Source: a virus (taxonomy: Duplodnaviria > Heunggongvirae > Uroviricota > Caudoviricetes). From it: a stretch of 33,995 bases of DNA. The first letter of the stretch is position 1, and every line of letters begins with the position of its first letter. The position numbers were made by a program, and so were the translations under genes. Of this stretch, positions 1 through 33,413 are shown one piece after another. The stretch is from positions 1 to 33,995 of the IMG/VR virus record IMGVR_UViG_2778261513_000009; one strand, 5' to 3'. The notes beneath the pieces were generated by a model, which saw only the letters and a list, made by a program, of their open reading frames with translations, did no database searches and was not told the DNA's origin.

Positions 1-1362
1 ATGTTTAAACCGGAACTCCTTTCCCCGGCGGGAACGCTGAAAAATATGCGTTACGCTTTCGCTTATGGCGCAGATGCTGTTTATGCGGGCCAGCCGCGTT
101 ATTCCCTGCGTGTGCGCAACAACGAATTCAACCACGAAAATCTTCAGCTCGGCATCAATGAAGCCCACGCGCTGGGGAAAAAGTTTTATGTCGTGGTCAA
201 CATTGCACCGCACAACGCCAAGCTGAAAACCTTTATCCGTGACCTGAAACCGGTGGTGGAAATGGGGCCGGATGCGCTGATTATGTCCGATCCAGGGCTG
301 ATTATGCTGGTGCGTGAGCACTTCCCTGAAATGCCGATCCACCTTTCGGTGCAGGCTAACGCCGTGAACTGGGCGACGGTGAAATTCTGGCAGCAAATGG
401 GCCTGACCCGCGTGATCCTCTCTCGCGAGCTGTCGCTGGAAGAGATTGAAGAGATCCGCAATCAGGTGCCGGATATGGAGATCGAGATCTTCGTTCACGG
501 CGCGCTGTGCATGGCCTACTCCGGTCGCTGCCTGCTCTCTGGCTATATCAACAAGCGCGACCCGAACCAGGGCACCTGCACCAACGCCTGCCGCTGGGAG
601 TACAACGTCCAGGAAGGGAAAGAAGATGATGTTGGCAACATCGTACACAAGTACGAGCCGATTCCGGTGCAAAATGTTGAGCCGACGCTGGGTATCGGCG
701 CACCAACCGACAAAGTGTTTATGATCGAAGAGGCCCAGCGTCCGGGCGAGTATATGACCGCGTTTGAAGATGAGCACGGCACTTACATCATGAACTCGAA
801 AGATCTGCGCGCCATCGCCCATGTAGAACGCCTGACCAAAATGGGCGTGCATTCGCTGAAGATCGAAGGCCGTACTAAATCTTTCTACTATTGCGCACGC
901 ACCGCACAGGTTTATCGTAAAGCTATCGATGATGCCGCTGCGGGCAAACCGTTCGATACCAGCCTGCTGGAAACTCTGGAAGGTCTGGCGCATCGTGGCT
1001 ATACCGAAGGTTTCCTGCGTCGTCATACTCACGACGATTATCAGAACTACGAATACGGTTATTCGGTTTCTGACCGCCAGCAGTTTGTTGGTGAGTTTAC
1101 CGGTGAGCGCAAGGGGGACCTCGCGGCGGTAGCGGTGAAAAATAAATTCTCCGTTGGCGACAGCCTTGAGCTGATGACGCCGCAAGGCAACATTAATTTT
1201 ACCCTTGAGCACATGGAAAACGCCAAAGGCGAAGCTATGCCGATAGCACCAGGCGATGGTTATACTGTGTGGCTCCCGGTCCCGCAGGATCTTGAGCTCA
1301 ATTACGCGCTGCTGATGCGTAATTTCTCCGGGGAAACCACGCGTAATCCCCACGGTAAGTGA
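1..1362 (+). CDS. yegQ: Peptidase U32-family protein YegQ (RlhA, 23S rRNA 5-hydroxycytidine synthase), host gene
   Basis: Full-length 453-aa ORF whose translation (MFKPELLSPAGTLKNMRYAFAYGADAVYAGQPRY...) I recognise as E. coli YegQ; GC-rich host-like composition; lies immediately upstream of cyaR as in E. coli. Confidence 0.9.
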   Translation: MFKPELLSPAGTLKNMRYAFAYGADAVYAGQPRYSLRVRNNEFNHENLQLGINEAHALGKKFYVVVNIAPHNAKLKTFIRDLKPVVEMGPDALIMSDPGLIMLVREHFPEMPIHLSVQANAVNWATVKFWQQMGLTRVILSRELSLEEIEEIRNQVPDMEIEIFVHGALCMAYSGRCLLSGYINKRDPNQGTCTNACRWEYNVQEGKEDDVGNIVHKYEPIPVQNVEPTLGIGAPTDKVFMIEEAQRPGEYMTAFEDEHGTYIMNSKDLRAIAHVERLTKMGVHSLKIEGRTKSFYYCARTAQVYRKAIDDAAAGKPFDTSLLETLEGLAHRGYTEGFLRRHTHDDYQNYEYGYSVSDRQQFVGEFTGERKGDLAAVAVKNKFSVGDSLELMTPQGNINFTLEHMENAKGEAMPIAPGDGYTVWLPVPQDLELNYALLMRNFSGETTRNPHGK

Positions 1363-6014: not shown

Positions 6015-6485
6015 GATGGTTTCCGCTTCGTTGCAGCGCCTTGTCGCGCCATGTCAGGAGCTCGGTCACGCTCAGGGAATATAACTCTGATGGCGGCCAG
6101 TGGAAAATCACCGCGATATCCGCCATCAGGTCATCGACCGACAGGTTTTTCGGAAAGGTCAGCGACCCGAAGCAGGCGACAAAAAACCGACCACCTTACC
6201 GGCCAGCGAAATCAGGTCAGAGGCATCGAGACGCGTGACCTCGTGCTCGGTCAGGGCGGGATACGTCATACGCGGCAGCACCTTAATCAGCGCATCAACG
6301 TCGGAATTCGCCAGCGAGGCCAGCGACACCCCGCGCAGGGTTCCGGCATTCGGTTTGGTCAGCGTGACCTGTTCAATTTTCTGCTCACCGCGCATCAGCG
6401 GGGTATCAAAAATCACCACATTCGGATTGACGGTTTCAGTATCAGCAACGGCAGTTTCATTGATATTTTTCATGGGTATTCTCAT
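6004..6485 (-). CDS. Tail assembly chaperone E+E' (fusion made by programmed -1 ribosomal frameshift)
   Basis: I translated the -1 frame by hand from the slippery site: it stays open through ...VACFGSLTFPKNLSVDDLMADIAVIFHWPPSELYSLSVTELLTWRDKALQRSGNHHEQ and stops at 6004-6006, overlapping the T start by 11 nt as in P2. Confidence 0.7.
6159..6485 (-). CDS. E: Tail assembly chaperone E (zero-frame product)
   Basis: 108-aa ORF ending ...GKVVGFLSPASGR; alternative start at ATG 6473 (MKNINETAV...). Located between FII and T. Confidence 0.8.
   Translation of the reverse strand: MRIPMKNINETAVADTETVNPNVVIFDTPLMRGEQKIEQVTLTKPNAGTLRGVSLASLANSDVDALIKVLPRMTYPALTEHEVTRLDASDLISLAGKVVGFLSPASGR
6180..6186 (-). 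other. Slippery heptamer T TTT TTG for the E/E' -1 frameshift
   Basis: Minus-strand sequence GGT TTT TTG read directly; 0-frame codons TTT TTG preceded by T, 7 codons before the E stop. This is the heptamer reported for the P2 E/E' frameshift. Confidence 0.75.
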
Positions 6486-6526
6486 CAGGAAAAGTGACCG
6501 GCCAGCCTCACTGACCGGGTAAGGGA

Positions 6527-7045
6527 TTACAGGCCAATCGCCCTGCGGTGTTCCGCCAGACGGTCGACGCCGTCGACTTTCAGCACCATGTTAACGACGT
6601 CAATCTCGATGACTTCGCGGCCATCAATCGTGAGCTGGTAATAGGCGCACTCGGTCGACATTTTGGTCGTGCCGCTTTCGCCCTGCTTGTTCTCACCGCC
6701 GTCATATTCTTTGTGACGGCCACGCATCACCACCTCGACGGCAGAAATCGCGCCGGTGTCATCACGCTGGAAAGAGCCGGTAAAGCGCAGCGGCACACTG
6801 TCAGCCCCCGGCGAGGCATACTGCGCCCACAGCTCAACGTCGGGCAGACCACCGAGCGTCCACTCCAGCGACAGCGCGTCGTCATCGAGGCCGAGGTCAA
6901 TTGACACCGCGCCCGGCATCCCGCCACCGCGATATTTCTCCAGCTTGCGGGTCAGCTTTGGCAGGGTGACGGACTCAACGACGCCCATGTGGCTGAGGCC
7001 ATCGTTGAACATATTCAGATATTTAAGTTTGCGGGGTAACGCCAT
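6527..7045 (-). CDS. FII: Tail tube protein FII
   Basis: 172-aa ORF immediately downstream of FI; size and order match P2 gpFII. Confidence 0.85.
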   Translation of the reverse strand: MALPRKLKYLNMFNDGLSHMGVVESVTLPKLTRKLEKYRGGGMPGAVSIDLGLDDDALSLEWTLGGLPDVELWAQYASPGADSVPLRFTGSFQRDDTGAISAVEVVMRGRHKEYDGGENKQGESGTTKMSTECAYYQLTIDGREVIEIDVVNMVLKVDGVDRLAEHRRAIGL

Positions 7046-7057
7046 GCTCTGAGCTCC

Positions 7058-8251
7058 TTAGCTGTTGACCGAGTCCGACAGATTCGCCAGATAGGTATCG
7101 GTGATGCGCTGGCGCAGGGTCAGGTTCTCCAGCGGCGGGACGGGGGTGTAGTCATAATCGATATACAGTTTCCCGACTTTCAGGGTCGCCGTCTCGTTTG
7201 ACTCCGGGTCATACCAACAGGAGCCGTCAACGATATACCCGTTATTTTTCAGCTCGCGGAATTTGGCATTGATACCCGATACGATGTCGCGAATGAGGGT
7301 CGGGGTAATGGGTTTATCCATCGCCCAGGCATGCGCCTCCGCCATTGTGTCGGCCAGTACCTGCGCGGTGCGGGTGTAGTTCTCATACAGGAAAAGCGGG
7401 TCATCTGAGCAGGTGCGGTTTCCCCAAAACTTGAAACCGTCATTGCGGATAAGCGTCGTAACACCGGCTTTGTTAAGCAGGTTGGCGTCGGTCGCGGGCT
7501 CCTGCAAATCCCACGACACCGAGGCGCTGACGCCGGTGACGCCATTCACGCCGACGTTTGACAGGGTTTTATGCCAGCCGACGGTCTGGTCAATTCTGGC
7601 ACGCAGACCGAGCGCGCGCGCCGTTGCCCAGGCTGTCGCAGTCTCATTCGCCGTTGTGTCCCATGCCAGAAAATCCGGGAAGATAACCATCAGCTCACGC
7701 TGGCTGAAATTCTCGCGGTAGTTAATGGCATCAGAAATGGTTTTGCAGCCCCACGCACTGACATAACCAAAGGCGCGCAGGCTCTGGCAGGTGGACGCGA
7801 GCGCCGTCGCCACTTCCTGTGAGTCCAGCCCCGGCACGCCGAGAATGCGTGGTTTCACGCCGGTGACGGTCTGCGCCGTCAGCAGCGCTTTCAGGCCGGT
7901 GTATTTGCCATTTTCGTCAGTCGTGCCGATGATGTTGGAAATGGTTTGTTTCTTCCCGGCCTCCGGATCATCCGGGTCTTCTGCGCCTTCGGCCACGCGC
8001 ACGGCCACAATGACCGGTTTGCACTGGTCAGCGATGGCCTGCAGGGATGTCGACAGCGTCCCCTTTTTGCCCGCCTTACCGATAGCGCTTTGCACGTTGG
8101 TAATGAGCACCGGCTCATTGAGGGGAAATGTCTTTTCGTCAGCATCGCTGGCCGTGCAGACCATGCCGATGATGGCCGTTGAGACGGTGGAAATGGTGCG
8201 CACGCCATCGTTAATCTCGATGACCTCTACGCCATGATGAAAATCACTCAT
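7058..8251 (-). CDS. FI: Contractile tail sheath protein FI
   Basis: 397-aa ORF (MSDFHHGVEVIEINDGVRTISTVSTAIIGMV...) matching P2 gpFI in size and position. Confidence 0.9.
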   Translation of the reverse strand: MSDFHHGVEVIEINDGVRTISTVSTAIIGMVCTASDADEKTFPLNEPVLITNVQSAIGKAGKKGTLSTSLQAIADQCKPVIVAVRVAEGAEDPDDPEAGKKQTISNIIGTTDENGKYTGLKALLTAQTVTGVKPRILGVPGLDSQEVATALASTCQSLRAFGYVSAWGCKTISDAINYRENFSQRELMVIFPDFLAWDTTANETATAWATARALGLRARIDQTVGWHKTLSNVGVNGVTGVSASVSWDLQEPATDANLLNKAGVTTLIRNDGFKFWGNRTCSDDPLFLYENYTRTAQVLADTMAEAHAWAMDKPITPTLIRDIVSGINAKFRELKNNGYIVDGSCWYDPESNETATLKVGKLYIDYDYTPVPPLENLTLRQRITDTYLANLSDSVNS

Positions 8252-13090: not shown

Positions 13091-13305
13091 AGATAAAGGA
13101 TGCCGAGGGGCAGAGAATCCAGCAACAAAATGGAGTTTGATGAGAGCTAAGACAACATACCCTAATACTATCTATCATTGATGAAAGCACATCAGAGCAA
13201 TGATGCTATTGTGAGCTAGCGCGAATTATCAACTTCCGCTTTTGCGGTAGGAATGCATATGTTTAAAATGTTATATTCAAGAAAAAATTGACTGAGAGAT
13301 CTTTA

Positions 13306-14502
13306 ATGTTTGATTCGATAGTATTAAAACGCTCAATAGATGGCCCAACATTGACGATTGGCGAAATTGCTGAAGCATTAATTTTCTATCAAAATGTTCA
13401 CGTTGTAATGGACACATCAACCCTCCTCGGCATCATTAGAGAAATAGGGAGCCATAATGTAATCAAGTTATTAACACTCCCTGGTATAAAAACTACTTTC
13501 ATTGAGGAGTTCGTAGGTGTGTATGGCCAAGACACGTACCATGGAAAAGAGTACGCATTAATAAGCGCTTACTTTGCCGGAAGTGAAACAGATGGGGAAT
13601 TAAAAAGCTGGAAAAAAAGATTGGCAAACATGATTTCACGCCAAGGTTATAGCAAAGTTGAATCTGACAATTTTGTCGAAAGATTCAAAAGATGCGTAAC
13701 GTTAAAGAAACTCTCCAGCGACTACTTCATTAAAGGCGGTATAATATCAGCTGCACGTAGTGATTTAAATGATAGTGATTTCGTTTCATCGGCCGCACTC
13801 ATTATCTTGGAAGATTTATTACCTAAAGAGGAAATTACGAGCGACCTCTTTTATAAAACATTCCCAACCAGAGAAACCTTCCAAATCTCGACAAATATTA
13901 ATTTTGAAAAAATAAACAACTATAATGCTAATAAATTCTCTGACATTGGTGAAACAACCCCTGCAAGCATTGCAGCGGGAATCCTTAGCGCTTCATACGG
14001 ACTTATTTTAGCTGCTCACTACGGTGGCGATTTCTATACATCAGCGACAGACTCAAAGATCATTCAGTTCAAAAATAAACAACTACTCACCAGAACTAAC
14101 GCAAACCGTAAAGAACTAGAAACCTTCAATGAGGTGATTTTGAAGGATTGCCCAAATATATCCTCAATCATAAATAAAAAAGAACGTTCCTTTGAGGAAT
14201 TTTTAGAGTTACTTTCAAAAGCTAATAAATTTAAAAACTGGCTAAAAAACAAATCCCCAGATAAAAATCTTCTATCGAACTATGTTGATGATATTTCGAA
14301 AACAGGATGGATGGGAAGTAGTTATGGGAAGGCCTTACGTTACATTGTAAGTACTGGTGCAGGAATCATTAGCCCAGCGAGCGGACTTGCCATATCCGCA
14401 CTAGATACATTTTTATTAGACAGACTTAGCGCAGGCTGGAAACCAAATCAATTCGTCACATCAAAACTAAAACCTTTTGTTGATGTTAATGATGAATTTT
14501 AA
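13306..14502 (+). CDS. Hypothetical 398-aa protein of unknown function (AT-rich cargo gene between V and S, opposite strand)
   Basis: Long uninterrupted ORF in a markedly AT-rich segment (GC-rich backbone on both sides), antisense to the late operon and followed by its own hairpin terminator. I recognise no family. The ORF track starts at TTG 13288; ATG 13306 is the likely start. Confidence 0.6.
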   Translation: MFDSIVLKRSIDGPTLTIGEIAEALIFYQNVHVVMDTSTLLGIIREIGSHNVIKLLTLPGIKTTFIEEFVGVYGQDTYHGKEYALISAYFAGSETDGELKSWKKRLANMISRQGYSKVESDNFVERFKRCVTLKKLSSDYFIKGGIISAARSDLNDSDFVSSAALIILEDLLPKEEITSDLFYKTFPTRETFQISTNINFEKINNYNANKFSDIGETTPASIAAGILSASYGLILAAHYGGDFYTSATDSKIIQFKNKQLLTRTNANRKELETFNEVILKDCPNISSIINKKERSFEEFLELLSKANKFKNWLKNKSPDKNLLSNYVDDISKTGWMGSSYGKALRYIVSTGAGIISPASGLAISALDTFLLDRLSAGWKPNQFVTSKLKPFVDVNDEF

Positions 14503-22180: not shown

Positions 22181-23188
22181 ATGAAAAAACAACAGAATAA
22201 ACCCGCCACAACGACCGCCAGCGCGCCGCAAAAAATGGAGGCGTTCACCTTTGGCGAGCCCTCCGCCGTTCTGGATCGCCGCGATATCCTCGATTATGTC
22301 GAGTGCATCAATAACGGGAAGTGGTACGAGCCGCCGGTCAACTTCTCTGGTCTAGCAAAAAGCCTGCGAGCCGCCGTGCATCACAGCTCGCCGATTTACG
22401 TAAAACGAAATATTCTGACGAGCACCTACATCCCGCACCCGCTCCTGTCGCGTCAGGATTTCAGCCGCCTCGTGCTGGATTATCTGGTCTTTGCCAACGG
22501 CTATCTTGAGAAACGCATGAGTGTTACCGGCCAGCTTTTAAAACTGGAAACATCACCGGCTAAATATACCCGTCGTGGCGTCGAGGATGGCGTTTACTGG
22601 TACATATCGAGCTTTAACAACCCCCACCAGTTCGCACCCGGCTCGGTGTTTCACCTGCTGGAGCCTGACATCAATCAGGAGCTGTACGGCATGCCGGAAT
22701 ATCTGAGCGCATTGAATTCGGCATGGCTAAATGAATCCGCCACCCTGTTTCGTCGCAAGTATTACCAGAATGGCGCGCACGCGGGTTACATCTTGTATGT
22801 CACCGACGCTGCACAAAGCAGCACTGATGTTGAAGCACTACGCAAGGCAATGCGTGACTCAAAAGGACTCGGCAATTTCAAGAACCTATTTTTTTATGCA
22901 CCGAATGGAAAAGCTGATGGGATCAAAATTGTGCCACTCAGCGAAGTAGCAACGAAAGATGATTTCTTTAACATCAAAAAGGTTAGTGCAGAAGATTTGT
23001 TGAGTGCTCATAGGGTACCTCCACAAATGATGGGAATTATGCCTAACAATGTTGGCGGTTTTGGTGATGTTGTAAAAGCTGCACAAGTTTTTGTCCGAAA
23101 TGAGTTAACTCCTTTACAGGAACGGTTCAAAGAACTAAACAACTGGTTAGAAATGGACGTTATAAGATTTAAAAAATATTCACTTTGA
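22181..23188 (+). CDS. Q: Portal protein Q (3' third encoded by AT-rich DNA)
   Basis: 335-aa ORF starting 2 nt after the P stop; composition shifts to AT-rich near 22800. Confidence 0.9.
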   Translation: MKKQQNKPATTTASAPQKMEAFTFGEPSAVLDRRDILDYVECINNGKWYEPPVNFSGLAKSLRAAVHHSSPIYVKRNILTSTYIPHPLLSRQDFSRLVLDYLVFANGYLEKRMSVTGQLLKLETSPAKYTRRGVEDGVYWYISSFNNPHQFAPGSVFHLLEPDINQELYGMPEYLSALNSAWLNESATLFRRKYYQNGAHAGYILYVTDAAQSSTDVEALRKAMRDSKGLGNFKNLFFYAPNGKADGIKIVPLSEVATKDDFFNIKKVSAEDLLSAHRVPPQMMGIMPNNVGGFGDVVKAAQVFVRNELTPLQERFKELNNWLEMDVIRFKKYSL

Positions 23189-23253
23189 TTTTCGAAATAA
23201 ACATCTCAACATTATATTCAGCCCTGTAACTCAAGAACCACATATAATAACGT

Positions 23254-23278
23254 CACAGCCCACTTTATCGGGGCTGTG
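23254..23278. terminator. Bidirectional hairpin (cacagccc / gggctgtg) between convergent Q and the 370-aa cargo gene
   Basis: 8-bp perfect inverted repeat with a 9-nt loop and A/T-rich flanks. Confidence 0.5.
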
Positions 23279-23283
23279 ATAAT

Positions 23284-24396
23284 TTAACCAACCCTTGCTT
23301 TTTTATATGGACCACAACTCCAACTAAAGAAATTCTTACCTAACTTATACCATTTATCAGAAAGCACTGGTGTTAGGTGAGGATTATATTTTTTTAAACT
23401 TCCCTTTTGTATATATTTCAATGTATTGCTGAGCAAATTCTCTCCAAAACCATCATAACTTACACAAGCAGTGTTGCAGCTACAGCGTTTTGAGTCGATA
23501 TACTCACAATCATATTTTATATCAAGCTTCTTTAATATCGGACGCCAATATGCACCATGTTTTCGATCGAGTTCAAGGGCTGTTTTAAAATCAAAACCTT
23601 TTTTATGGTCAATGTAAAATTTTACTGATTCATCTACGGAGCAAAGATGCTTAAAGAAAATGAGAGATTTTTCTTTTTGTTGAAATTGACTTTGACTTCT
23701 TAATACATCTTCAATTGTCGATAAAGGAACTAGAGATTCTATTTCATGTACATCTAAAATCTCAACGAAACCTGAGCGAGTGATTTGTGAGCCCAAAAAA
23801 TGTGAGCAAGTACCCCCGAATGGGGCTCTAGGATGTTTTTTGTCATTATCCACAATACAAAAAACTATCTCATTATTTTGAATTGCACGCTCGAATACAT
23901 CCTTAGTACTACCCCCACCGCCATTTAGAGCGATAAAACCCATTTCGCAGCGAGATAAGTTAATACCTTCGGCATAATGAGCCGCTATAACTCTAAAAAA
24001 ATCAGAATCCAAAGGATTTTCACATACTATTTTCGTTTTTTGCAATTGTGCCGAGTCATTAAAATACAATGGACCACAAACAAATTTAAAAGATTCACCG
24101 TTCTGAACCCATCTAAATGATTTATCACTAATATTAAAGTCGACAGTTACATAAAATGAGACCTGGTTCAAGATAGCATAGTACTCTGTTAGACCCGACA
24201 AAGCCTCTTGCGCGTAACTTTTTGATGAAAGGCTATAAAGCCCGCTTTGATCATTGATAATAGTTTTAAAAAAAACCCTTGTCCCTATAACCAAGTGTTT
24301 TTGTTCAGCAAATGCCCGAAGTATATTCTCAACCGCTATGGCAAATGAATTATTTAGCACCTGCTCAGGTGTCGCATTTTCGATATGAATCAACAT
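23284..24396 (-). CDS. 370-aa protein with Toprim-like E...DxD core (putative nuclease effector), partner of the upstream ATPase
   Basis: Start codon 2 nt after the ATPase stop. Motifs read by eye: KIVCENPLDSDFF (E126), Gly-rich LNGGGGS, IVFCIVDNDKK (D183/D185) about 57 residues after the Glu, and a Cys-rich C-terminus. The Toprim assignment is unverified. Confidence 0.7.
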   Translation of the reverse strand: MLIHIENATPEQVLNNSFAIAVENILRAFAEQKHLVIGTRVFFKTIINDQSGLYSLSSKSYAQEALSGLTEYYAILNQVSFYVTVDFNISDKSFRWVQNGESFKFVCGPLYFNDSAQLQKTKIVCENPLDSDFFRVIAAHYAEGINLSRCEMGFIALNGGGGSTKDVFERAIQNNEIVFCIVDNDKKHPRAPFGGTCSHFLGSQITRSGFVEILDVHEIESLVPLSTIEDVLRSQSQFQQKEKSLIFFKHLCSVDESVKFYIDHKKGFDFKTALELDRKHGAYWRPILKKLDIKYDCEYIDSKRCSCNTACVSYDGFGENLLSNTLKYIQKGSLKKYNPHLTPVLSDKWYKLGKNFFSWSCGPYKKARVG

Positions 24397-24398
24397 AA

Positions 24399-25955
24399 CT
24401 ACTTACCAGAGAAAAAGCCAACCGGCCAATTTTGTAGGAAACCATTCTCGTCAAAATAAGATTTCTTAACTATGGTCTGCTGCTTTTCATCTTTTTCAAA
24501 TACCAGTATTGAAATATCATCCTGTGAAAGATTTTCATTTTCCTCAATATATTCACCAAGTGCTTCAATCATGGTCTGGCTATGTGTCTCAAAAATTATC
24601 TTCAAATCCACATTGTTTTCTTTTGCTTTAGTTACTACTTTTGCAAAAATACTTGCTAAATTATGTTGATATGACGGATGTAAATGCAATTCTGGCTGCT
24701 CAATGATAAATGTTATAGGTTTTCTAACCGTGGTAGCACGACGTTCTGTCTCAAGCCAAATGGCTGTAACTATCGGCAAAACCTGAGAGTAACCAAACCC
24801 CATATCACTAACATTATAGTTCTCACTATTTTCACCGGTATTTATTAAAATTGCAAAGTGAGAGCCACTTTGTTCAACCTTAATAATGAAATCAAAATTT
24901 AACTTTGTCCAATCTTCAAATTTTGATTTATCAGCCGGCCTTAATGAATTCAAAAGCATTGCAAGATTGGAACCAGTATGATCTATCTCATTAACCTGTA
25001 AATCTTGAAAGCGATAAAATCTTTCTGATGTAGCACGCAGTGGAGCTATGTACTTTACATTTCTGAATGAATCTGACAAGGATGTATTTATTATATCTAT
25101 AAGATTATTAATATTCCATCCAATTATAAATGGATATAACTCATTCATTATTTCATCATGTTGAAGTTCAAAGTTTCTACTAAAAACTTTTTGTTCCTTG
25201 AATAGAAAAGCAACTAATTTACTGGCGTACGCTTTGGGTATAAAGCCAATTCTTTTGAATGCCTCTGTCACTTGATTTATATCAGATTTAGTATGGAAAT
25301 ATTTCTTTATATATTTCGCTGCTGAATCAATAAATGACAATTCTAATGCCCTGTCATGCCTAGAATGTCTCAAATAGAATGATGTGCTTGGAGGAGGACT
25401 ATCTTCCTTACCCTTCAAAATTAGATTGGGTATGAACTGCCCAAGATTTTTAGCTATTATCCCATCACGCTCTATTGTTTTATCATCTGATTCAATGAGT
25501 AACTTAACATTACTGTTCTCATCCATTGAAATAAATATTGTTAAATCAGCCAATATAAGCTTAATCGTTTTTGTTTTTGTTTTTTTATCTTTAGAGTAAA
25601 CAGTCAACTCTGCTTCAACATCTGTTGGTTGCTTTGCTAAATCAGTAAAACGATAATATGTATATCTTTGTGAAACCTCTGGCGGAATTGAGAGTGAAAA
25701 ACTGAACGTAATTTCTTTTTTTTCAGAGTTTCGGGAAAGTACATCTGTAAAATCGCCAAAATCCACATATCGCCCATACCATAGTATTGGACCAGTAGTA
25801 TTTTCTTCTACAGATTGACGAAGTAAAGGAAATGTACGCAATAGGGAACTTTTACCACTGCTGTTCTTACCAACAAATACTGTAATTGGTTTTAAATCAA
25901 TAAAAGTTTTGTTGACAAAGCTCCTGAAGTTTTGAAGACCTATACCCTTAATCAT
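24399..25955 (-). CDS. ABC-type (AAA_15/AAA_21-like, OLD/AriA-like) P-loop ATPase, 518 aa
   Basis: Walker A VFVGKNSSGKSSLL; Walker B-like FIIEQPELHLHP; H-loop-like IFETHSQ. Start taken at ATG 25955 (MIKGIGLQNFRSF), which has GGAG 8 nt upstream; the ORF track extends to 26042 across the GC/AT junction. Confidence 0.8.
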   Translation of the reverse strand: MIKGIGLQNFRSFVNKTFIDLKPITVFVGKNSSGKSSLLRTFPLLRQSVEENTTGPILWYGRYVDFGDFTDVLSRNSEKKEITFSFSLSIPPEVSQRYTYYRFTDLAKQPTDVEAELTVYSKDKKTKTKTIKLILADLTIFISMDENSNVKLLIESDDKTIERDGIIAKNLGQFIPNLILKGKEDSPPPSTSFYLRHSRHDRALELSFIDSAAKYIKKYFHTKSDINQVTEAFKRIGFIPKAYASKLVAFLFKEQKVFSRNFELQHDEIMNELYPFIIGWNINNLIDIINTSLSDSFRNVKYIAPLRATSERFYRFQDLQVNEIDHTGSNLAMLLNSLRPADKSKFEDWTKLNFDFIIKVEQSGSHFAILINTGENSENYNVSDMGFGYSQVLPIVTAIWLETERRATTVRKPITFIIEQPELHLHPSYQHNLASIFAKVVTKAKENNVDLKIIFETHSQTMIEALGEYIEENENLSQDDISILVFEKDEKQQTIVKKSYFDENGFLQNWPVGFFSGK

Positions 25956-26327
25956 TCCTAGCTCCATTAGTTCAATAAAATCAATCGATTTTGAGACAAT
26001 CTTAATATCTTTGACAGGCGCGCGCAATGCTATCCCCGCCACGCCTGCCCGCTTAACGGGTCGCTTTTAATGCAGTTGCATGACCACACAGGATCCGCGC
26101 CAGCTCTGGCGGCGCGCGGCCAGAACGGGCAACCCTGACGCATGCAAAGCAATGCACCTGTTGCATGCGCGGCTAAAAAACCGGGAAATTGTGGGAAAAT
26201 GGCATAATAAAACCGGCTTTAATCGTGCCGGTTGAGGTTGGTCTCTACGGGACAGGCTAACGCCTCGCGGGGCTCGTTGTTCAACCCCGCAGGCACTGAA
26301 AACAAGTTTCAGCACCGGCGGCGTTTG

Positions 26328-26576
26328 CTAAGGTCGACGCGGTGGTGGCTTCGACATATTTGGTTGCCGAAACGCCTCAATTTTCGGATTGCTGATATCG
26401 CTGTATTTGCGGTGATTATCCCGGACGACACCGGCACATCCGACCAGTTCGTCAGGGGTCAGATTCTCGTTGATCATAATTTGCTGCAGGCGATGCACGA
26501 CGGCCATCAGCTTAATGTTTTGCGTTGAATGTACCGGCGGCACTGGCATCATTCGCATATGACTCATTTTAACCAC
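26328..26576 (-). CDS. Hypothetical small protein (82 aa) downstream of the ASCH-like gene
   Basis: ORF only; position corresponds to small early-operon ORFs of P2-like phages. No motif recognised. Confidence 0.3.
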   Translation of the reverse strand: MVKMSHMRMMPVPPVHSTQNIKLMAVVHRLQQIMINENLTPDELVGCAGVVRDNHRKYSDISNPKIEAFRQPNMSKPPPRRP

Positions 26577-27028
26577 CCATTTTTTTTAGCATATGCGACC
26601 ATCTTGTCGGAATATTGCCAGACACCATCATCAGCGACGTAAGCCCCACCCGAAACGCCGTTAAGCGTTTCATATCCAATAGCCAGCCCTAACGGATGTA
26701 GAATTTCGTGATTAATTCTGAAAACAAGCCCTTTCTCGCTTAACTCTTTCCAGTTCATTAGTGACATACCGCACTGGACATCTGGCATCATTAACTGAAA
26801 ACTCAGCATCACATAATTTTCCGCCCATTCAGCTAAATCAGTAACGTTTGTCACCCTCACTGATACACGTTTCCCGGTATATCCGTTTACCGGTTCCCAT
26901 TCATGCAACCCGAGAATATCACCACTAGAATAATCGCGGTCATTGAAACGAAATTCAGCACGTTTTTCCTGAGATATCACCGCTTTAAAATGCTCAGGTG
27001 CAATTTTTAACTGATGGATTTTGCTCAT
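26564..27028 (-). CDS. Hypothetical protein with N-terminal ASCH/DUF3850-like domain and a C-terminal extension
   Basis: Start ATG 27028 with AGGAG 8 nt upstream, 5 nt after the A stop. N-terminus MSKIHQLKIAPEHFKAVISQEKRAEFRFNDRDY resembles DUF3850-type proteins as I recall them. Confidence 0.5.
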   Translation of the reverse strand: MSKIHQLKIAPEHFKAVISQEKRAEFRFNDRDYSSGDILGLHEWEPVNGYTGKRVSVRVTNVTDLAEWAENYVMLSFQLMMPDVQCGMSLMNWKELSEKGLVFRINHEILHPLGLAIGYETLNGVSGGAYVADDGVWQYSDKMVAYAKKNGWLK

Positions 27029-27033
27029 TAACT

Positions 27034-29319
27034 TTACTCCTCTTGCATTGAGAATCCCGGCCACTCATCAGCAGCCGCGTATTTGAATTTTTTATCGCCA
27101 TAAATCACCGTTGCCCCACGCGCCAGCGCTTCAAGCTCCCACCGTTCCGGGGTAATGCTCTCCTGAGCCAAATCGAAACGAATTTTCGCTATGCGATCCC
27201 TTTCTGGTTTTGTCATCCTGGCTGATGGCGCTTGCTCGCTCGTTTTGAGTGGAGCATGGCTTCTTTGCTGGCGATTTTTGCGAGGGATACCAGCTTTTAA
27301 CGCGCCGTTAAGCACCTTCATGACGTCTGGCTCATTCCAGCCGATAACCCCGCGCTCAATCAGATTTAACACCGCTGCGGCTTGCTCAGACGGTGTGGGT
27401 GTCATAACTGGAGCATCACCGCCGGTGAGCTTTCCACAGTTATTGACAGGACTCCGAGGCGCGGCAGAGCCGCTTTTTAAGGTCAAAGGCTCAACGGCCA
27501 AAATCTTTGGAACAATGCGCCATTCGGCTGTACGGGTTACATGTATGCGACTCGCCCCGAGGTGAGGGGCATAAATGCCGACCACTCTCTCGATATCTTC
27601 CTCATATTCGTTGACCTCATCAGTCACCTTACGGGCGACCCTAACGGCCTGCGCATCACGCGGCATGTTTGCCCCACCCTGTGCGATGATATACAGGTTA
27701 AATTCACCTTCATCAGCAGCAGCCCGGACAGCCTCGACCCGGTCGTCAAACTCACTGGCGATACTCACGCCGCGCGGCAGCTTGCGCAGTTCGCGGTAAG
27801 CGCCCATTGTCGGTAGGCCAATTGGTTTAAACTGCGGGATGCGCCATGTAGACGCCCATGCAGTTACGGCTGCGGCGGTATCTTTCAGAGGCTTTCCGGT
27901 GTCGTGGTCGATCTGGCCGTCGAGTGCGTAGCCGTCGATATTTTTGGCAATGTATTTAGCGATATAACCCGCCGCACCGCCCTGATTAAGATGACGTGAC
28001 TCAAAGCGCTGTTTTGCCGCTCCCTTTTCGTGCCCGTCCTCTTTGAGAGCATAACGACGCATAATTTCGTTAATAGCTTTACGCTGACCGGGTTTGCAAA
28101 ACAGCATCATGTGCCAGTGTGGCGTCCCGTCGTGGTGCGGTTCGACAACACGCATCCCGTAAACCTCTAAATCGTTATCTTTGAAAGCGGTGCGTATCAG
28201 GCTCCAGATTCGGCACAGATAGCGCTGGCCGTCTTTGGGGGTAAATGCGGTTTCATTCCAGCCATGATTGAGCTACACAGTTTTGTTTTCACCTTTGCCG
28301 ACCTGTCGGGTCGGGTGATACTTCGATGGCGTGGTCAGCGTGATAAACATCCCCACGTCACCAACGCAGGCCGCGTAGCGTTCAATCCCGGCGATAGTGT
28401 TCATCAGTTCCATACGCCGTATTTCAGGGTTAGAAATACTCCCCATTACCTTACTGATGAGGTCGATACGTTCGCCGGTGACTTTGTTTTCCAGCTCGCA
28501 GGATTTCAGGTATTCGAGATTAGCCAGGCGGCGCGCGTGCACATCGCGGATCGCCATTTTGCTTGCGTAAGGTGAGCGGTCTTTGTTGACCTCGCCAGCC
28601 GCAATAAGCAGCGCCTCGCGCCAGCGCATCCGCTGCGCCTTGAGCTGGCTGACCCACCACTCATCTTTTATCAGACGGGAAATAGCAGAAAATGCCATGC
28701 GGATCGTCATCTGACCCTTACGGTATTTTTTCCAGTACATCGGGGTGAAGTTAAAAGCGCGAGCAATACCGGCCACCTGACCGTATAAATGCGCCTGCGC
28801 CTCATCGGTGAATAAAGTGTCTTTCCCGCCGTGCGCCTCCTCCCATGCGTCGCTTAACTCCTCGTATTTGCTCCAGAGTTGAGAAGCAATTCTGGCCGCA
28901 AACTTCTTAAGCTCTTTGTCATTCATATCCGGCAGGCGCACATACTGGTCACGCTCGGACAAAAAACCAATCGAGGCGGATTCATTCATTCCGCACAGCT
29001 CATTAACACGCTCAAGACGCGGCAGCAACTTGCGCTCAAACGTGTTTTTGAGGAAATACAGCCCACCCAAGGGGCTCTTTGTGCGGCGGATGAAGTTATA
29101 ACGCGAGGTAAACAGCGTTTGCAGGAAAAACGGCAGGCGATCAATCCGGTTTAAAACACCTTGCACCTGACGGAGTTCGGCACGTGTAAGGGGTCTGTCG
29201 CGGCCAACTGCCTCGCGGGATTTATTCCACGGATAAGCACCGACGAAATTATCACCGGTGCTTTTTGGTAGTGGCGGAGGTGGCGAGGGGGCAACGCGCC
29301 CCCGAGTTTCAACGGCCAT
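27034..29319 (-). pseudogene. A: Replication initiation protein A (rolling-circle HUH endonuclease) interrupted by an in-frame amber codon at 28273-28275
   Basis: ORFs 28273-29397 and 27034-28155 are in the same frame; the 117 nt between them has no stop other than TAG at 28273-28275. The joined product would be about 761 aa from ATG 29319, carrying the HUH motif (HWHMMLF) and a tandem-tyrosine motif (YIAKYIAK). Confidence 0.8.
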
Positions 29320-29584
29320 CTGCAGCAAACGCAATCTGACATTGCTGACCAATGCGCTCGACCTGCTCGCCAATGTCCGCAAAACTAGCCGCCTCACCGG
29401 TCAGAATGCCATGTAATATCAGACCAGATACGAGTCTGGAAACTGTTGGATAATAGCCAATTACACCGAGCCACTCTTTACCGGCGCTCTTTCCTGATTT
29501 TGCGGTTTTCTTTTCCTGCAAAATAAATTGAAACTGGTCACTAGTGACGACGAAACGGTCGCCCACCTCAATATAAATTGACAT
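29309..29584 (-). CDS. Hypothetical early-operon protein (orf82/83-like position)
   Basis: 91-aa ORF immediately upstream of A, overlapping its start by 11 nt. Confidence 0.55.
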   Translation of the reverse strand: MSIYIEVGDRFVVTSDQFQFILQEKKTAKSGKSAGKEWLGVIGYYPTVSRLVSGLILHGILTGEAASFADIGEQVERIGQQCQIAFAADGR

Positions 29585-32303: not shown

Positions 32304-32399
32304 CAATTTACGGCGCTTTTTTGTGCAGTAAATGCACTGTGAGTTTTTGTTATTTAAATCAGGAAATTGAAGTACGCAGTAACATCATCGGGAGGCTTT

Positions 32400-33413
32400 A
32401 TGTCTGTTAAAAAGCTCGATGATGGTCGATATGAAGTGGACGTCAGACCTGCAGGGCGCAACGGAAAGCGCATCCGCAGGAAGTTCGATAAGAAAAGTGA
32501 AGCTATCGCTTTTGAAAAATATACTCAGTACAACCATCACAACAAAGATTGGTTGGCTAAACCGACAGATAAGCGGCATCTGTCAGAATTAACAAAAGTC
32601 TGGTGGGATTTGAAGGGCAAGCATGAGACTCATGGTCGAGATTATCTAGGAAAAATTGAGTTATTCACAAGGATTACAAGTGACCCATGCGCATTTCAGA
32701 TTACTAAATCATTGATTAGCCAGTACGGCACGGTGCGCCGTTCTCAGGGCATCAAACCATCGAGCATCAACCGCGATTTGACTTGCCTTAGCGGAATGTT
32801 TACCTCGTTGATAGATGCAGAGCTATTTTTCGGTGAACACCCTTTCAGAGGTGTTAAGCGACTGAAAGAGGACAAACCTGAAACTGGCTACCTCACGCAA
32901 GAGGAGATCGCTGATCTACTGTCGAAAGTCGATGGGGATAATAAGAAAATAGCGATTCTTTGTCTTAGCACCGGCGCGAGATGGAGTGAGGCTGCAAAAT
33001 TGAAAGCTGAAAACATCATCCAAAATCGCGTCACGTTCGTTAAGACAAAAACCAACAAACCGCGAACCGTTCCGATATCCGAGGAGCTGGCAACAATGAT
33101 CACATCAGGAAAGCGTGGCTATCTGTTCACGAACGCTAACTATCCTGCATTCAGACGATTAATGAAAGAGTTGAAACCGGACTTGCCACCGGGTCAGGCG
33201 ACGCACGCATTGCGTCACAGCTTTGCCACTCACTTTATGATTAACGGAGGCAGCATTATCACGCTTCAACGGATACTCGGGCACTCACGAATTGAGCAGA
33301 CAATGACCTATGCACATTTCGCCCCTGAGTACCTGCAGGACGCGGTAACGCTTAATCCTTTACGCGGTGGCACTGATGCTCTGAGTGTCCACACAATGTC
33401 CACGCTTGAATGA
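32400..33413 (+). CDS. int: Tyrosine integrase (P2 Int family)
   Basis: MSVKKLDDGRYEVDVRPAGRNGKRIRRKFDKKSEAIAFEKY... and C-terminal ...HALRHSFATHFMINGGSIITLQRILGHSRIEQTMTYAHFAPEYL match P2 Int as I recall it, including the catalytic R/H/Y region; GGGAGG ribosome-binding site. Confidence 0.9.
   Translation: MSVKKLDDGRYEVDVRPAGRNGKRIRRKFDKKSEAIAFEKYTQYNHHNKDWLAKPTDKRHLSELTKVWWDLKGKHETHGRDYLGKIELFTRITSDPCAFQITKSLISQYGTVRRSQGIKPSSINRDLTCLSGMFTSLIDAELFFGEHPFRGVKRLKEDKPETGYLTQEEIADLLSKVDGDNKKIAILCLSTGARWSEAAKLKAENIIQNRVTFVKTKTNKPRTVPISEELATMITSGKRGYLFTNANYPAFRRLMKELKPDLPPGQATHALRHSFATHFMINGGSIITLQRILGHSRIEQTMTYAHFAPEYLQDAVTLNPLRGGTDALSVHTMSTLE

What the first reader, a model, noticed from the sequence alone, without database searches (positions are those of the whole stretch)
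24690..24701. Catalytic glutamate of the ATPase Walker B motif is naturally replaced by glutamine (EQPE instead of DEPE)
In the AAA_15/AAA_21 family the Walker B region normally reads hhhhDEPExxLHP. Here it reads FIIEQPELHLHP, with CAG (Gln) at 24696-24698 where the catalytic Glu would be and Glu where the Asp would be. E-to-Q at this position is the classic ATP-binding, hydrolysis-dead variant of ABC ATPases. If my alignment is right, this ATPase may act as a nucleotide-bound sensor or clamp rather than a turnover enzyme, or be inactivated.
Basis: partly seen in the sequence, partly recalled or inferred. Interest (0 to 1): 0.5.

Follow-up and report, generated by a model that had tools for sequence, protein, structure and literature searches.

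The report
Defence ATPase lacking its catalytic glutamate
A prophage-borne ATPase really does carry glutamine where related enzymes carry the glutamate that splits ATP, but this is the fixed signature of a very large family of anti-phage ATPases paired with a nuclease, not a private mutation, so it probably binds ATP and hydrolyses it slowly or not at all.

Summary
Window 24690-24701 (minus strand) reads GAG CAG CCA GAA, which is E-Q-P-E, and CAG (Gln) lies at 24696-24698. Profile alignments to Thermus OLD, retron PtuA and the Eco8 effector put Gln420 at the catalytic Walker B glutamate and Glu419 at the Walker B aspartate.

It is not a lesion. All 331 distinct full-length homologues (27-100% identity, many phyla) have EQPE. 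The Gln codon alternates CAA/CAG and is never GAA/GAG. The ATP-binding residues are equally invariant. More distant DUF3696-tailed ATPases carry EQ or EN, and EN was published for Menshen NsnB in 2025.

The gene is the first of a two-gene AT-rich cassette in the P2 prophage tin/old hotspot. This cassette type is the untested PADLOC candidate PDC-M55. The second gene, an orphan in Pfam, encodes an OLD/AriB-type Toprim nuclease whose acidic residues are invariant.

"Inactivated" is refuted. "ATP-bound sensor or clamp" is the best reading, with precedent in Septu PtuA, but it is untested. A family-invariant Glu456 next to the H-loop histidine leaves residual or alternative catalysis open.

The finding is moderately interesting: a variant of a known kind of system.

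The parts
24399..25955 (-). ABC ATPase gene (518 aa from ATG 25955; RefSeq-style annotation starts at GTG 26042, giving 547 aa). AAA_15/AAA_21 core plus a DUF3696 C-terminal tail.
   Evidence: ORF. Start site. Pfam AAA_15 1.6e-26, AAA_21 7.4e-19, DUF3696 6.1e-7 (30 bits against a cut-off of 22). PADLOC NsnB 7.3e-55 and PDC-M55A 3.5e-46. AF2 model pLDDT 82. Foldseek top hits are Rad50, retron PtuA, GajA and Ts OLD.
25848..25871 (-). Walker A / P-loop, GKNSSGKS (G29-S36; Lys35).
   Evidence: Translation. G29, G34, K35 and S36 are each present in 331/331 family members.
24783..24806 (-). Degenerate ABC signature motif, DMGFGYSQ (D384-Q391; the 'GxG' form).
   Evidence: Translation. D384, G386 and G388 are 331/331. 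The same SGG-to-GxG change is reported for NsnB.
24675..24716 (-). Walker B strand plus D-loop, ITFIIEQPELHLHP (I414-P427). E419 is the Mg-site acid, Q420 sits at the catalytic-Glu position, and H424/H426 are D-loop histidines.
   Evidence: Alignments to Ts OLD, PtuA and Eco8. Strand 414-419 in the model. E419, Q420, P421, E422, H424, H426 and P427 are each 331/331.
24690..24701 (-). The reported EQPE tetrapeptide. GAG (E419) at 24699-24701, CAG (Q420) at 24696-24698, CCA (P421) at 24693-24695, GAA (E422) at 24690-24692.
   Evidence: Codon spectrum at Q420 is CAA 50 / CAG 39.
24579..24590 (-). H-loop, ETHS (E456-S459). H458 is the switch histidine. E456 is a clade-specific invariant Glu two residues upstream.
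   Evidence: Translation. E456 is 331/331 and H458 is 330/331. Ts OLD, PtuA and Eco8 have S or T at this position. EE-type relatives also have ETHS.
24411..24527 (-). DUF3696 C-terminal tail (about residues 477-515, ending ...NWPVGFF). It is the predicted effector-docking element in Menshen NsnB.
   Evidence: Pfam PF12476 hit. W510, P511, G513 and F514 are >=97% conserved. The role as NsnC-binding element was predicted by AlphaFold 3 in PMC12065111.
23284..24396 (-). Partner gene (370 aa). It has an N-terminal alpha/beta domain (about 1-118), an OLD/AriB-type Toprim nuclease core (about 120-225) and a helical, Cys-containing C-terminal region. It starts 2 nt after the ATPase stop codon (TAG-TT-ATG).
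23722..24039 (-). Toprim core with the acidic residues E126 (24019-24021), D130 (24007-24009), D183 (23848-23850), D185 (23842-23844) and E220 (23737-23739), plus a GGG loop at 159-161.
   Evidence: Translation. E126, D183, D185, E220 and G161 are 77/77, and D130 is 73 D plus 4 E. They are invariant again in the 46-sequence alignment A3. The spacing +4/+53/+2/+35 resembles AriB E26/D30/D88/E90/E122, which is +4/+58/+2/+32.
23190..26000 (.). AT-rich cargo island (GC 32-36%) inside a P2-like prophage backbone (GC 52-60%). It lies between the portal gene (22181-23188, +) and the replication-gene side (DUF3850 gene 26564-27064; gpA 27034-29397). This is the P2 tin/old hotspot.
   Evidence: Composition. 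RefSeq annotation of the 99.95%-identical UTAK-6 locus. The same hotspot position in a Rahnella P2-like prophage.

Best explanation
EQPE is the fixed active-site signature of a very large clade of DUF3696-tailed (NsnB-like) ABC ATPases. It is not a mutation of this gene.

Here the ATPase is gene 1 of a translationally coupled, horizontally acquired two-gene anti-phage cassette. The cassette type is the untested PADLOC candidate PDC-M55. It sits in the tin/old hotspot of a P2-like prophage. Gene 2 encodes an OLD/AriB-type Toprim nuclease.

Shown:
- Gln420 occupies the catalytic-glutamate position and Glu419 the Mg-site position.
- Every nucleotide-binding and dimerisation element is invariant: Walker A Lys35/Ser36, the signature GxG motif, D-loop His424/His426 and H-loop His458.
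- The partner keeps a complete Toprim acidic site and is always co-inherited with the ATPase.

Inferred:
- The ATPase binds Mg-ATP and closes into the usual head-to-head ABC dimer. A higher oligomer is possible, as predicted for NsnB.
- A carboxamide (Gln here, Asn in NsnB) replaces the general base, so hydrolysis is very slow or absent and the ATP-bound closed state is long-lived.
- In that state the ATPase holds the Toprim nuclease inactive, probably through the paired DUF3696 tails.
- A phage trigger, or a fall in ATP during infection, opens the dimer and frees or activates the nuclease. This gives abortive-infection-type defence against phages that superinfect the lysogen.
For: Position and alignment: together with the published residue assignments.

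Selection: Q420 is present in 331/331 members (median identity 35%) with CAA/CAG turnover and no Glu codon. The ATP-binding residues are equally invariant.

Clade-wide amide: distant DUF3696 ATPases with other partners read EQPE, and a Menshen-type NsnB next to a DUF262 gene reads ENPE. The 'DE to EN' change in NsnB is published. Menshen defends experimentally, as cited. HEC-03, whose PADLOC model matches this ATPase at 1e-36, needs both of its genes for defence. An amide at this position is therefore compatible with function.

E-to-Q effect in relatives: AriA E393Q and PtuA E396Q lose or strongly reduce hydrolysis while still binding nucleotide. PtuA E398, the equivalent of E422, does not rescue the E396Q mutant.

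Precedent for non-hydrolysing, ATP-sensing defence ABC ATPases: stand-alone Septu PtuAB traps ATP, lacks ATPase activity and is inhibited by ATP. The GajA nuclease is inhibited by ATP.

Against: No ATPase, binding or defence assay exists for any member of this family, so 'slow or no hydrolysis' is inference by analogy.

Engineered E-to-Q is not an absolute block. PtuA E396Q complexes contained ADP in three of four sites.

The family keeps an invariant H-loop His458 and an unusual invariant Glu456 beside it. Together they could support catalysis.

Two relatives in the wider DUF3696 clade have a canonical EE pair on the same ETHS background. In a crude NJ tree they fall among the EQ/EN types. 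The scaffold therefore tolerates a catalytic Glu, and hydrolysis may matter in some lineages.

In PARIS and retron Eco7 the E-to-Q mutation abolishes defence and effector release. An ATP-locked ATPase therefore cannot work in the PARIS way, and the release step proposed here is hypothetical.

The ATPase-partner contact through DUF3696 is extrapolated from AlphaFold 3 models of a different partner type, NsnC.
Confidence: 0.55

Rival explanations
1. The ATPase is a genuine turnover enzyme that uses a rebuilt catalytic centre. The invariant Glu456, two residues before H-loop His458, would polarise the histidine (a Glu-His dyad), or would itself activate the water. This would replace the lost Walker B glutamate, and Gln420 would only position the water and the gamma-phosphate. 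ATP hydrolysis would then drive release of the nuclease, as in PARIS.
For: E456 is 331/331 and H458 is 330/331. Ts OLD, Eco7 PtuA and Eco8 have S or T at the E456 position. Every EQ- or EN-type sequence examined has E-[TS]-H-S. In PARIS and Eco7, hydrolysis is needed for effector release and defence. PtuA E396Q still accumulates ADP. OLD-type ATPases already tolerate non-canonical catalytic residues: Glu for the Walker B Asp, and His or Arg in the Q-loop.
Against: ETHS also occurs in relatives that keep a canonical EE Walker B (L093, L096). Glu456 therefore did not arise as compensation for the loss. The alternation of Gln with Asn, which conserves the amide and never gives Asp or Glu, argues for selection against a carboxylate rather than indifference. 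No biochemical data exist.
Confidence: 0.27
2. The alignment is off by register, and Glu422 (the E of 'PE') is the real catalytic base. Nothing would then be missing.
For: E422 is invariant and lies only two residues from the canonical position.
Against: Canonical relatives carry both glutamates: Ts OLD E-E-P-E, Eco8 D-E-P-E, PtuA D-E-I-E. E422 therefore aligns with their second Glu, not with the catalytic one. In PtuA the E396Q mutant loses function even though E398 is present. The predicted beta-strand ends at E419, which puts Q420 at the canonical post-strand position.
Confidence: 0.05
3. The glutamine marks a dead or decaying gene (a pseudo-enzyme remnant in a defective prophage) or a sequencing error.
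For: The prophage does carry a premature TAG in its replication gene A, so this copy of the phage may be defective.
Against: Q420 and the whole nucleotide-binding apparatus are invariant in 331 sequences from many phyla, with synonymous codon turnover. Both ORFs are intact and full length here. The same codon is present in 99.9%-identical genomes.
Confidence: 0.02
4. The two-gene cassette is primarily a toxin-antitoxin or addiction module, or serves a phage-intrinsic function, rather than being an anti-phage defence system. The EQ ATPase would be simply a stable antitoxin or chaperone for the nuclease.
For: PARIS behaves formally as a type II TA pair in which AriA sequesters AriB. The family also occurs on plasmids beside TA and Abi genes. 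No defence phenotype has been reported for PDC-M55-type cassettes.
Against: The location in the P2 tin/old hotspot and next to other conflict systems, relatives embedded in type I RM loci, and homology to the validated systems Menshen and HEC-03 all point to defence. The TA-like and defence roles are not mutually exclusive.
Confidence: 0.1

Closest known systems
Menshen NsnB (DUF3696-tailed ABC ATPase of the NsnABC system; Millman 2022; analysis in PMC12065111)
   Same: It is the best PADLOC match (7.3e-55). Both proteins have an AAA_15 core plus a DUF3696 tail. They share the same active-site remodelling: the Walker B DE pair becomes E plus an amide, and the SGG signature becomes GxG. A plasmid NsnB next to a DUF262 gene reads IIENPESHLHP / IVESHS. 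The tail is predicted to dock the effector.
   Different: This protein has Gln rather than Asn. It is about 150 aa longer, with a larger insert. There is no NsnA (DUF262) gene in the cassette. The partner is a Toprim nuclease, not an inPIN-plus-toxin NsnC.
PADLOC candidate PDC-M55 (untested 'phage defence candidate')
   Same: The ATPase hits PDC-M55A at 3.5e-46. Of 46 members of the partner family, 32 hit PDC-M55B, with a best E-value of 4.7e-17. The two-gene order is the same.
   Different: The window's own partner falls below the PDC-M55B threshold (no hit at E<=0.01), so PADLOC would not call this copy as a complete system. Nothing is published on the function or active site of PDC-M55.
PARIS (AriA ABC ATPase + AriB DUF4435 Toprim nuclease)
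   Different: AriA has a canonical D392-E393 pair, and the E393Q mutant abolishes hydrolysis, trigger response and defence. There is no DUF3696 tail in AriA. None of 46 partner-family members hit Pfam DUF4435, so the PARIS detection rule is not met. The partner here has an extra N-terminal domain of about 118 aa.
Stand-alone Septu PtuA (with PtuB HNH nuclease)
   Same: It is a defence ABC ATPase reported to bind and trap ATP without hydrolysing it, with nuclease activity inhibited by ATP. This is the functional precedent for a 'sensor, not motor' reading. The ELHLHP-type D-loop is shared with the retron PtuA.
   Different: Its partner is an HNH nuclease, not a Toprim. Sequence similarity is only marginal (8ee4, E=0.041). 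I could not establish the reason for its lack of hydrolysis or its Walker B sequence.
OLD-family nucleases (P2 Old, Thermus scotoductus OLD, Gabija GajA, retron Eco8 effector)
   Same: The ABC ATPase subfamily is the same: 6p74 is the best PDB sequence hit, at 5.6e-8. They share Glu at the Walker B Asp position and a His D-loop. The Toprim fold of the partner is the same. P2 old occupies the same prophage hotspot.
   Different: In OLD proteins the ATPase and Toprim are fused in one polypeptide, and the catalytic Glu is present (IIEEPE). Here they are two genes and the Glu is replaced by Gln.
HEC-03 and HEC-01 (Hma-embedded candidates, bioRxiv 10.1101/2024.01.29.577857)
   Same: HEC-03 is an ABC ATPase plus a PIN protein that was validated in defence, with both genes required. 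Its PADLOC model matches residues 385-545 of this ATPase at 1e-36. HEC-01 is an ABC ATPase plus a TOPRIM protein.
   Different: The HEC-03 effector is a PIN domain, not a Toprim. HEC-01 matches only the N-terminal P-loop region (3e-17) and showed no defence in the published tests. The Walker B residues of both are not stated in the paper.

Membership tests
ABC ATPase, OLD/AAA_15 subfamily | Pfam AAA_15/AAA_21 match above the gathering score, and an ABC (Rad50/SMC/OLD-like) fold | tested here: met
   AAA_15 scores 94.3 bits (cut-off 32.1) and AAA_21 scores 69.4 bits (cut-off 27). Foldseek probability is 1.00 to Rad50, PtuA, GajA and Ts OLD.
ABC ATPase, OLD/AAA_15 subfamily | Walker A GxxxxGK[ST], H-loop His and D-loop His | tested here: met
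   GKNSSGKS, ETH458S and ELH424LH426P are each invariant in 331 sequences.
ABC ATPase, OLD/AAA_15 subfamily | Walker B hhhh[D/E] followed by the catalytic Glu | tested here: not met
   The acidic Mg-site residue is present (E419), but the next residue is Gln420 in 331/331 sequences. The aligned relatives have Glu there.
DUF3696-tailed / NsnB-like ATPase clade | C-terminal DUF3696 (PF12476) helix or tail | tested here: met
   30.0 bits against a cut-off of 22, at residues 506-544 of the 547-aa ORF. RefSeq annotates the identical gene as a DUF3696 domain-containing protein.
DUF3696-tailed / NsnB-like ATPase clade | Remodelled motifs as reported for NsnB: Walker B E plus an amide, and a GxG signature | tested here: met
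   EQ at 419-420 and G386-F-G388. NsnB is reported as EN and GxG. A plasmid NsnB reads ENPE.
DUF3696-tailed / NsnB-like ATPase clade | Q-loop glutamine replaced by arginine | tested here: inconclusive
   An invariant R307 follows strand 300-303, which is where a Q-loop is expected. That segment has pLDDT below 50, and no residue-level structural alignment was available.
Menshen (NsnABC) | An adjacent NsnA gene with a ParB-like DUF262 domain | tested here: not met
   The island 23190-26000 holds only the two genes. The flanking ORFs are the portal gene, an 82-aa phage ORF and a DUF3850 gene. No DUF262 domain was found.
Menshen (NsnABC) | An NsnC-type effector (inactive PIN N-domain plus a toxin C-domain) | tested here: not met
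PARIS (AriAB) | An AAA_15 or AAA_21 ATPase next to a DUF4435 (PF14491) protein scoring at least 27 bits (rule quoted) | tested here: not met
   The ATPase half of the rule is met. For DUF4435 there are 0 hits among 46 partner-family members, even at E<=1. Only 1 of 46 members gives a weak PADLOC AriB hit, at 1e-4.
PARIS (AriAB) | A hydrolysis-competent AriA (D392/E393) whose activity is needed for AriB release | tested here: not met
   The Walker B pair here is E-Q. In AriA the E393Q mutant is non-functional.
OLD-type Toprim nuclease (partner protein) | A Toprim fold with a conserved Glu, a DxD motif and further acidic metal ligands | tested here: met
OLD family nucleases, Classes 1/2 | ATPase and Toprim domains in a single polypeptide | tested here: not met
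   There are two ORFs, separated by a stop codon plus 2 nt. The same split is found in 79/80 loci.
PADLOC PDC-M55 | Both PDC-M55A and PDC-M55B models matched by adjacent genes | tested here: inconclusive
   The A model matches at 3.5e-46, although NsnB scores higher. The window's own partner does not hit the B model, but 32 of 46 homologous partners do, with a best E-value of 4.7e-17. The family corresponds to PDC-M55, and this copy is a divergent member.
Septu (PtuAB) | An HNH nuclease PtuB partner | tested here: not met
   The partner is Toprim-like. The NCBIfam PtuA match is only 21 bits against a cut-off of 500.
Non-hydrolysing, ATP-sensing ABC ATPase (functional class) | Binds ATP but shows no or very slow turnover, and ATP level controls the nuclease | not testable with these tools
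   This needs ATPase and binding assays. Only sequence-level inference is available.

The most novel reading that the evidence does not exclude
A whole, very widespread clade of defence ABC ATPases has turned the classic laboratory 'E-to-Q trap' into its native state. This clade comprises the DUF3696-tailed ATPases of this Toprim-partnered family, of Menshen, probably of HEC-03, and of several unnamed cassettes with RNA-ligase, DUF2325 or RM-embedded partners.

These proteins would be ATP-locked clamps, or cellular ATP-level gauges, that keep diverse nucleases silent. They would release the nucleases when a phage trigger pries the dimer open or when ATP collapses.

That would give one common mechanism for several currently unexplained systems. 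A sharper sub-variant is that catalysis has moved to a Glu456-His458 dyad, which would be a new catalytic arrangement for ABC ATPases.
Probability: 0.35. Interest if true: 0.65.

Novelty: new variant of a known kind. Interest (0 to 1): 0.45.

Why it matters
ABC ATPase plus nuclease pairs (PARIS, Septu, Gabija, OLD, Menshen, retron effectors) are among the commonest anti-phage modules. A central open question for all of them is whether ATP binding or ATP hydrolysis carries the signal. In PARIS and retron Eco7 the engineered E-to-Q mutant is dead.

Here nature has fixed Gln (or Asn) at that very position. The family has more than 1,100 50%-identity clusters at E<1e-30 and about 17,000 detectable relatives. 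It is spread over most bacterial phyla and is always linked to an intact nuclease.

That makes the question directly testable on a natural system, using the Q420E, E456Q and K35A mutants. It flags a shared active-site signature (E-[Q/N]-P-E ... E-[T/S]-H-S) that can be used to classify these ATPases. It also assigns a fold and a likely activity (Toprim nuclease) to a partner protein family that currently has no Pfam, PHROG or NCBIfam annotation.

The finding is not categorically new. The EN variant was noted for NsnB in 2025, and the cassette type is already a database candidate.

Tried and rejected
1. Natural 'DQ' precedent in solved structures. The profile search returned retron I-A PtuA chains reading IVLIDQIELHLHP (9nnb, 9nnk). 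Reading the papers showed these are engineered E396Q constructs, and the wild type is IVLIDE. They are rejected as a natural precedent.

3. The word-indexed homologue search found only 31 partner homologues, which wrongly suggested a polymorphic partner. Locus-based HMM searches showed that the partner is conserved next to the ATPase everywhere.

4. Glu456 as a compensatory substitution that arose together with E-to-Q. This idea is weakened because two EE-type relatives also have ETHS.

5. A polarity or history for E-to-Q from a quick NJ tree of core motifs. The tree is too crude (239 columns, midpoint root) to decide whether the change happened once or several times. It is reported only as a hint.

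6. I looked for published tests of this cassette in the P2/P4 hotspot papers and in the Hma-embedded-candidates paper and found none. The Krishnan et al. 2020 classification of ABC ATPases is not held in the library.

7. I could not obtain model coordinates, so the distances between Gln420, Glu456, His458 and the nucleotide site were not measured. No multimer prediction tool was available.

8. I could not recover the Walker B sequences of Septu PtuA (8ee4), GajA or HEC-03A from the tools.
Full report
**1. The observation**

On the minus strand, window 24690-24701 reads GAG CAG CCA GAA, which is E-Q-P-E. CAG (Gln) is at 24696-24698, inside the peptide ITFIIEQPELHLHP.

The ORF is listed as 24399..26042 (547 aa, GTG start). 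Homologues are 516-520 aa and begin at MIKGIG. The ATG at 25955 has a GGAG-containing Shine-Dalgarno sequence. I therefore use the 518-aa numbering:
- Walker A: G29-KNSSG-K35-S36
- Signature: D384-MGFGYS-Q391
- Walker B and D-loop: I414...E419-Q420-P421-E422-L-H424-L-H426-P427
- H-loop: E456-T-H458-S

**2. Is Gln really at the catalytic position?**

The protein is an AAA_15/AAA_21 ABC ATPase with a C-terminal DUF3696 domain. HMMER aligns FIIEQPELHLHP with three relatives:
- VIIEEPEMYLHP of Thermus scotoductus OLD (6p74)
- LIDEIELHLHP of wild-type retron Eco7/Ec78 PtuA
- IDEPEVGLHP of the Eco8 effector

The literature fixes the register. Ts OLD E276 is the essential residue that replaces the Walker B Asp, and H283 is the D-loop residue. 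PtuA D395/E396 and AriA D392/E393 are the Walker B pairs, and their E-to-Q mutants lose hydrolysis.

So E419 is the Mg-site acid, which is a normal OLD-family variant. Q420 replaces the catalytic Glu. E422 aligns with the second Glu that canonical members also have, so it is not a shifted catalytic residue.

The AlphaFold2 model (pLDDT 82, pTM 0.84) has a beta-strand at 414-419 that ends at E419. It matches Rad50, PtuA, GajA and Ts OLD with Foldseek probability 1.0.

One trap was avoided. The PDB PtuA chains that read 'IDQIE' (9nnb, 9nnk) are engineered E396Q mutants.

**3. It is a family signature, not a lesion**

- EQPE is present in 119/119 full-length homologues from the 90%-cluster search.
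- It is present in 142/142 full-length representatives from the exhaustive 50%-cluster search. That search counts 1,153 representatives at E<=1e-30 and 17,382 at E<=1e-3.
- Pooling these with 80 genome loci from Proteobacteria, Firmicutes, Bacteroidota, Cyanobacteria, Chloroflexota, Myxococcota and others gives 331 distinct full-length sequences, 27-100% identical to the window protein (median 35%).
- In these sequences K35, S36, D384, G386, G388, E419, Q420, P421, E422, H424, H426, P427 and E456 are each 331/331, and H458 is 330/331.
- At the DNA level the Gln codon is CAA in 50 and CAG in 39 of 89 distinct loci, and is never GAA or GAG. The site has mutated many times while Glu, one base away, has been excluded.

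The 'inactivated' reading and a base-call error are therefore out. The 99.95%-identical E. coli UTAK-6 locus has no difference at this codon.

**4. Beyond the family**

Distant DUF3696 ATPases on plasmids were sampled by tblastn, and their loci were read.
- The Bacillus, Rhodococcus, Aeromonas, Deinococcus, Paracoccus, Leclercia and Methylocella proteins all read EQPE.
- A Menshen-type NsnB next to a DUF262 gene reads ENPE. [quoted passage not shown]
- All of them read E-[T/S]-H-S at the H-loop.
- Two relatives (Acinetobacter L093, Hymenobacter L096) keep a canonical EE pair with the same ETHS. In a crude NJ tree they fall among the EQ/EN types.

So the amide at the catalytic position is a clade-level trait. 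It alternates between Gln and Asn, coexists in the wider clade with lineages that keep Glu, and is absolutely fixed in the family found here.

**5. What the gene belongs to**

The ATPase and the next ORF (23284..24396, 370 aa) are separated by TAG-TT-ATG. Together they form a 32-36% GC island in a 52-60% GC P2-like prophage. The island lies between the portal gene and the replication-gene side, which is the tin/old hotspot.

The same pair occupies the same hotspot in a Rahnella prophage, and sits in a non-prophage conflict island in Frischella. The partners there are 42% and 28% identical to the window's partner.

In 79 of 80 genome loci a partner homologue of about 345-400 aa follows the ATPase directly. 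The one exception is a contig end. In E. coli the cassette is in 39 of 5,426 complete genomes, always chromosomal and single-copy.

**6. The partner**

The partner has no Pfam, NCBIfam, PADLOC or PHROG hit, and none of 46 family members hits DUF4435.

Across 77 diverse partners E126, D183, D185, E220 and G161 are invariant, and D130 is D or E (again). The spacing resembles the AriB active site E26/D30/D88/E90/E122.

In PADLOC terms the ATPase hits PDC-M55A (3.5e-46), and 32 of 46 partners hit PDC-M55B. The cassette is a divergent member of that untested candidate system. Its architecture parallels PARIS, but it fails the PARIS definition on both the DUF4435 partner and the hydrolytic AriA.

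**7. Mechanism**

Shown:
- The ATP-binding and dimerisation apparatus is under strong purifying selection.
- The general base is replaced by an amide.
- An intact nuclease is always co-inherited.

Inferred: the ATPase binds ATP and dimerises but hydrolyses very slowly or not at all. It acts as an ATP-dependent clamp or sensor that keeps the nuclease silent until a trigger or an ATP drop releases it. By analogy with the NsnB-NsnC models, it probably holds the nuclease through its DUF3696 tails.

Support by analogy:
- E-to-Q abolishes hydrolysis in AriA and strongly reduces it in PtuA.
- Stand-alone Septu PtuAB lacks ATPase activity, traps ATP and is inhibited by ATP.
- The GajA nuclease is ATP-inhibited.
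- Menshen (EN) and HEC-03 are active defence systems.

Cautions:
- E-to-Q is leaky, because PtuA E396Q complexes hold ADP.
- In PARIS and Eco7 the E-to-Q mutant is non-functional, so the release step must differ here.
- The invariant Glu456 next to His458 could sustain catalysis. This is the main rival reading. It is weakened, though not excluded, by the presence of ETHS in EE-type relatives.

I put about 0.55 on the clamp/sensor reading and about 0.27 on a rebuilt catalytic centre. Misalignment, decay and a non-defence role are minor.

**8. Novelty and score**

The feature, however, is a known-type clade signature. EN in NsnB was published in 2025, and the cassette type is already listed as a PADLOC candidate.

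What appears not to be described in the literature I could search:
- the absolute fixation of Gln across this family;
- the pairing of an EQ-type DUF3696 ATPase with a Toprim nuclease;
- the co-invariant ETHS motif;
- the fold assignment of the orphan partner.

The finding gives a clean natural test of the binding-versus-hydrolysis question. I rate interest at 0.45, and novelty as a new variant of a known kind.

Noticed in passing
window 28273-28275 (within gpA, 27034..29397, minus strand): The P2-type replication endonuclease gene A is a single reading frame interrupted by one TAG. The 99.95%-identical E. coli UTAK-6 prophage has CAG there (window 28275 is A, UTAK-6 has G) and an intact 761-aa protein. 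So this prophage copy carries an amber/nonsense mutation in its replication gene, or a sequencing error, and may be replication-defective.
   Followed up: partly
window ~13100-14500 (ORF 13288..14502, + strand): There is a second AT-rich island (GC 36-39% against 52-60% in the flanks). It carries a 404-aa ORF on the strand opposite to the surrounding tail and baseplate genes. The ORF has no Pfam, PADLOC or PHROG hit. It looks like cargo in another P2 variable position (the orf30-like site), and its function is unknown.
   Followed up: partly
window 24588-24590 (Glu456) and 24582-24584 (His458): A Glu two residues before the H-loop histidine (E-T-H-S) is invariant in 331/331 family members, and is present in all more distant DUF3696 ATPases examined. 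That includes two relatives that keep a canonical EE Walker B. Ts OLD, PtuA and Eco8 have S or T at this position. Its role (a dyad with His458, or a structural salt bridge) is unexplained.
   Followed up: partly
window 23389; L005 (E. coli UTAK-6) 6090-7112: Compared with the window, the UTAK-6 copy of the Toprim partner lacks one T. It is annotated as a 340-aa protein instead of 370 aa. The window copy matches the length of homologues, so the UTAK-6 copy is the frameshifted one.
   Followed up: yes
L086, L088, L089, L091, L092, L094, L095 (plasmid loci): EQ- or EN-type DUF3696 ATPases are paired with quite different downstream genes. The partners seen are an NsnC-like protein with an upstream or downstream DUF262 gene, a small protein plus an RNA-ligase-family protein (Rhodococcus, Aeromonas), and a DUF2325 protein. 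One is embedded between type I RM subunits and a SIR2 gene (Methylocella). This suggests a modular 'EQ ATPase plus swappable effector' design.
   Followed up: partly
PDB entries 9nnb, 9nnk (retron I-A PtuA): These chains read IVLIDQIELHLHP and look like a natural Gln precedent in profile searches. They are engineered E396Q constructs, which is a pitfall for anyone checking this motif against solved structures.
   Followed up: yes
window 24399-26042 versus 24399-25955: RefSeq/PGAP annotates the identical gene from an upstream GTG (547 aa). Homologue lengths and a GGAG Shine-Dalgarno sequence point to the ATG at 25955 (518 aa). The 29-aa N-terminal extension is probably an annotation artefact.
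   Followed up: yes
window 1-1362 (+) and 32367-33413 (+): The left end of the window encodes a Peptidase_U32 protein, which is probably a host gene flanking the prophage. The phage integrase lies near the right end. The window therefore spans essentially a whole P2-like prophage. The att sites were not mapped.
   Followed up: no
phage record AM157364.1 (Enterobacteria phage P2-EC5, 3,023 bp fragment): This fragment, sequenced from a P2-like prophage of E. coli ECOR5, contains a distant relative of this ATPase (29% identity over the C-terminal 42%). I did not inspect which region of the prophage the fragment covers or what its Walker B residues are.
   Followed up: no
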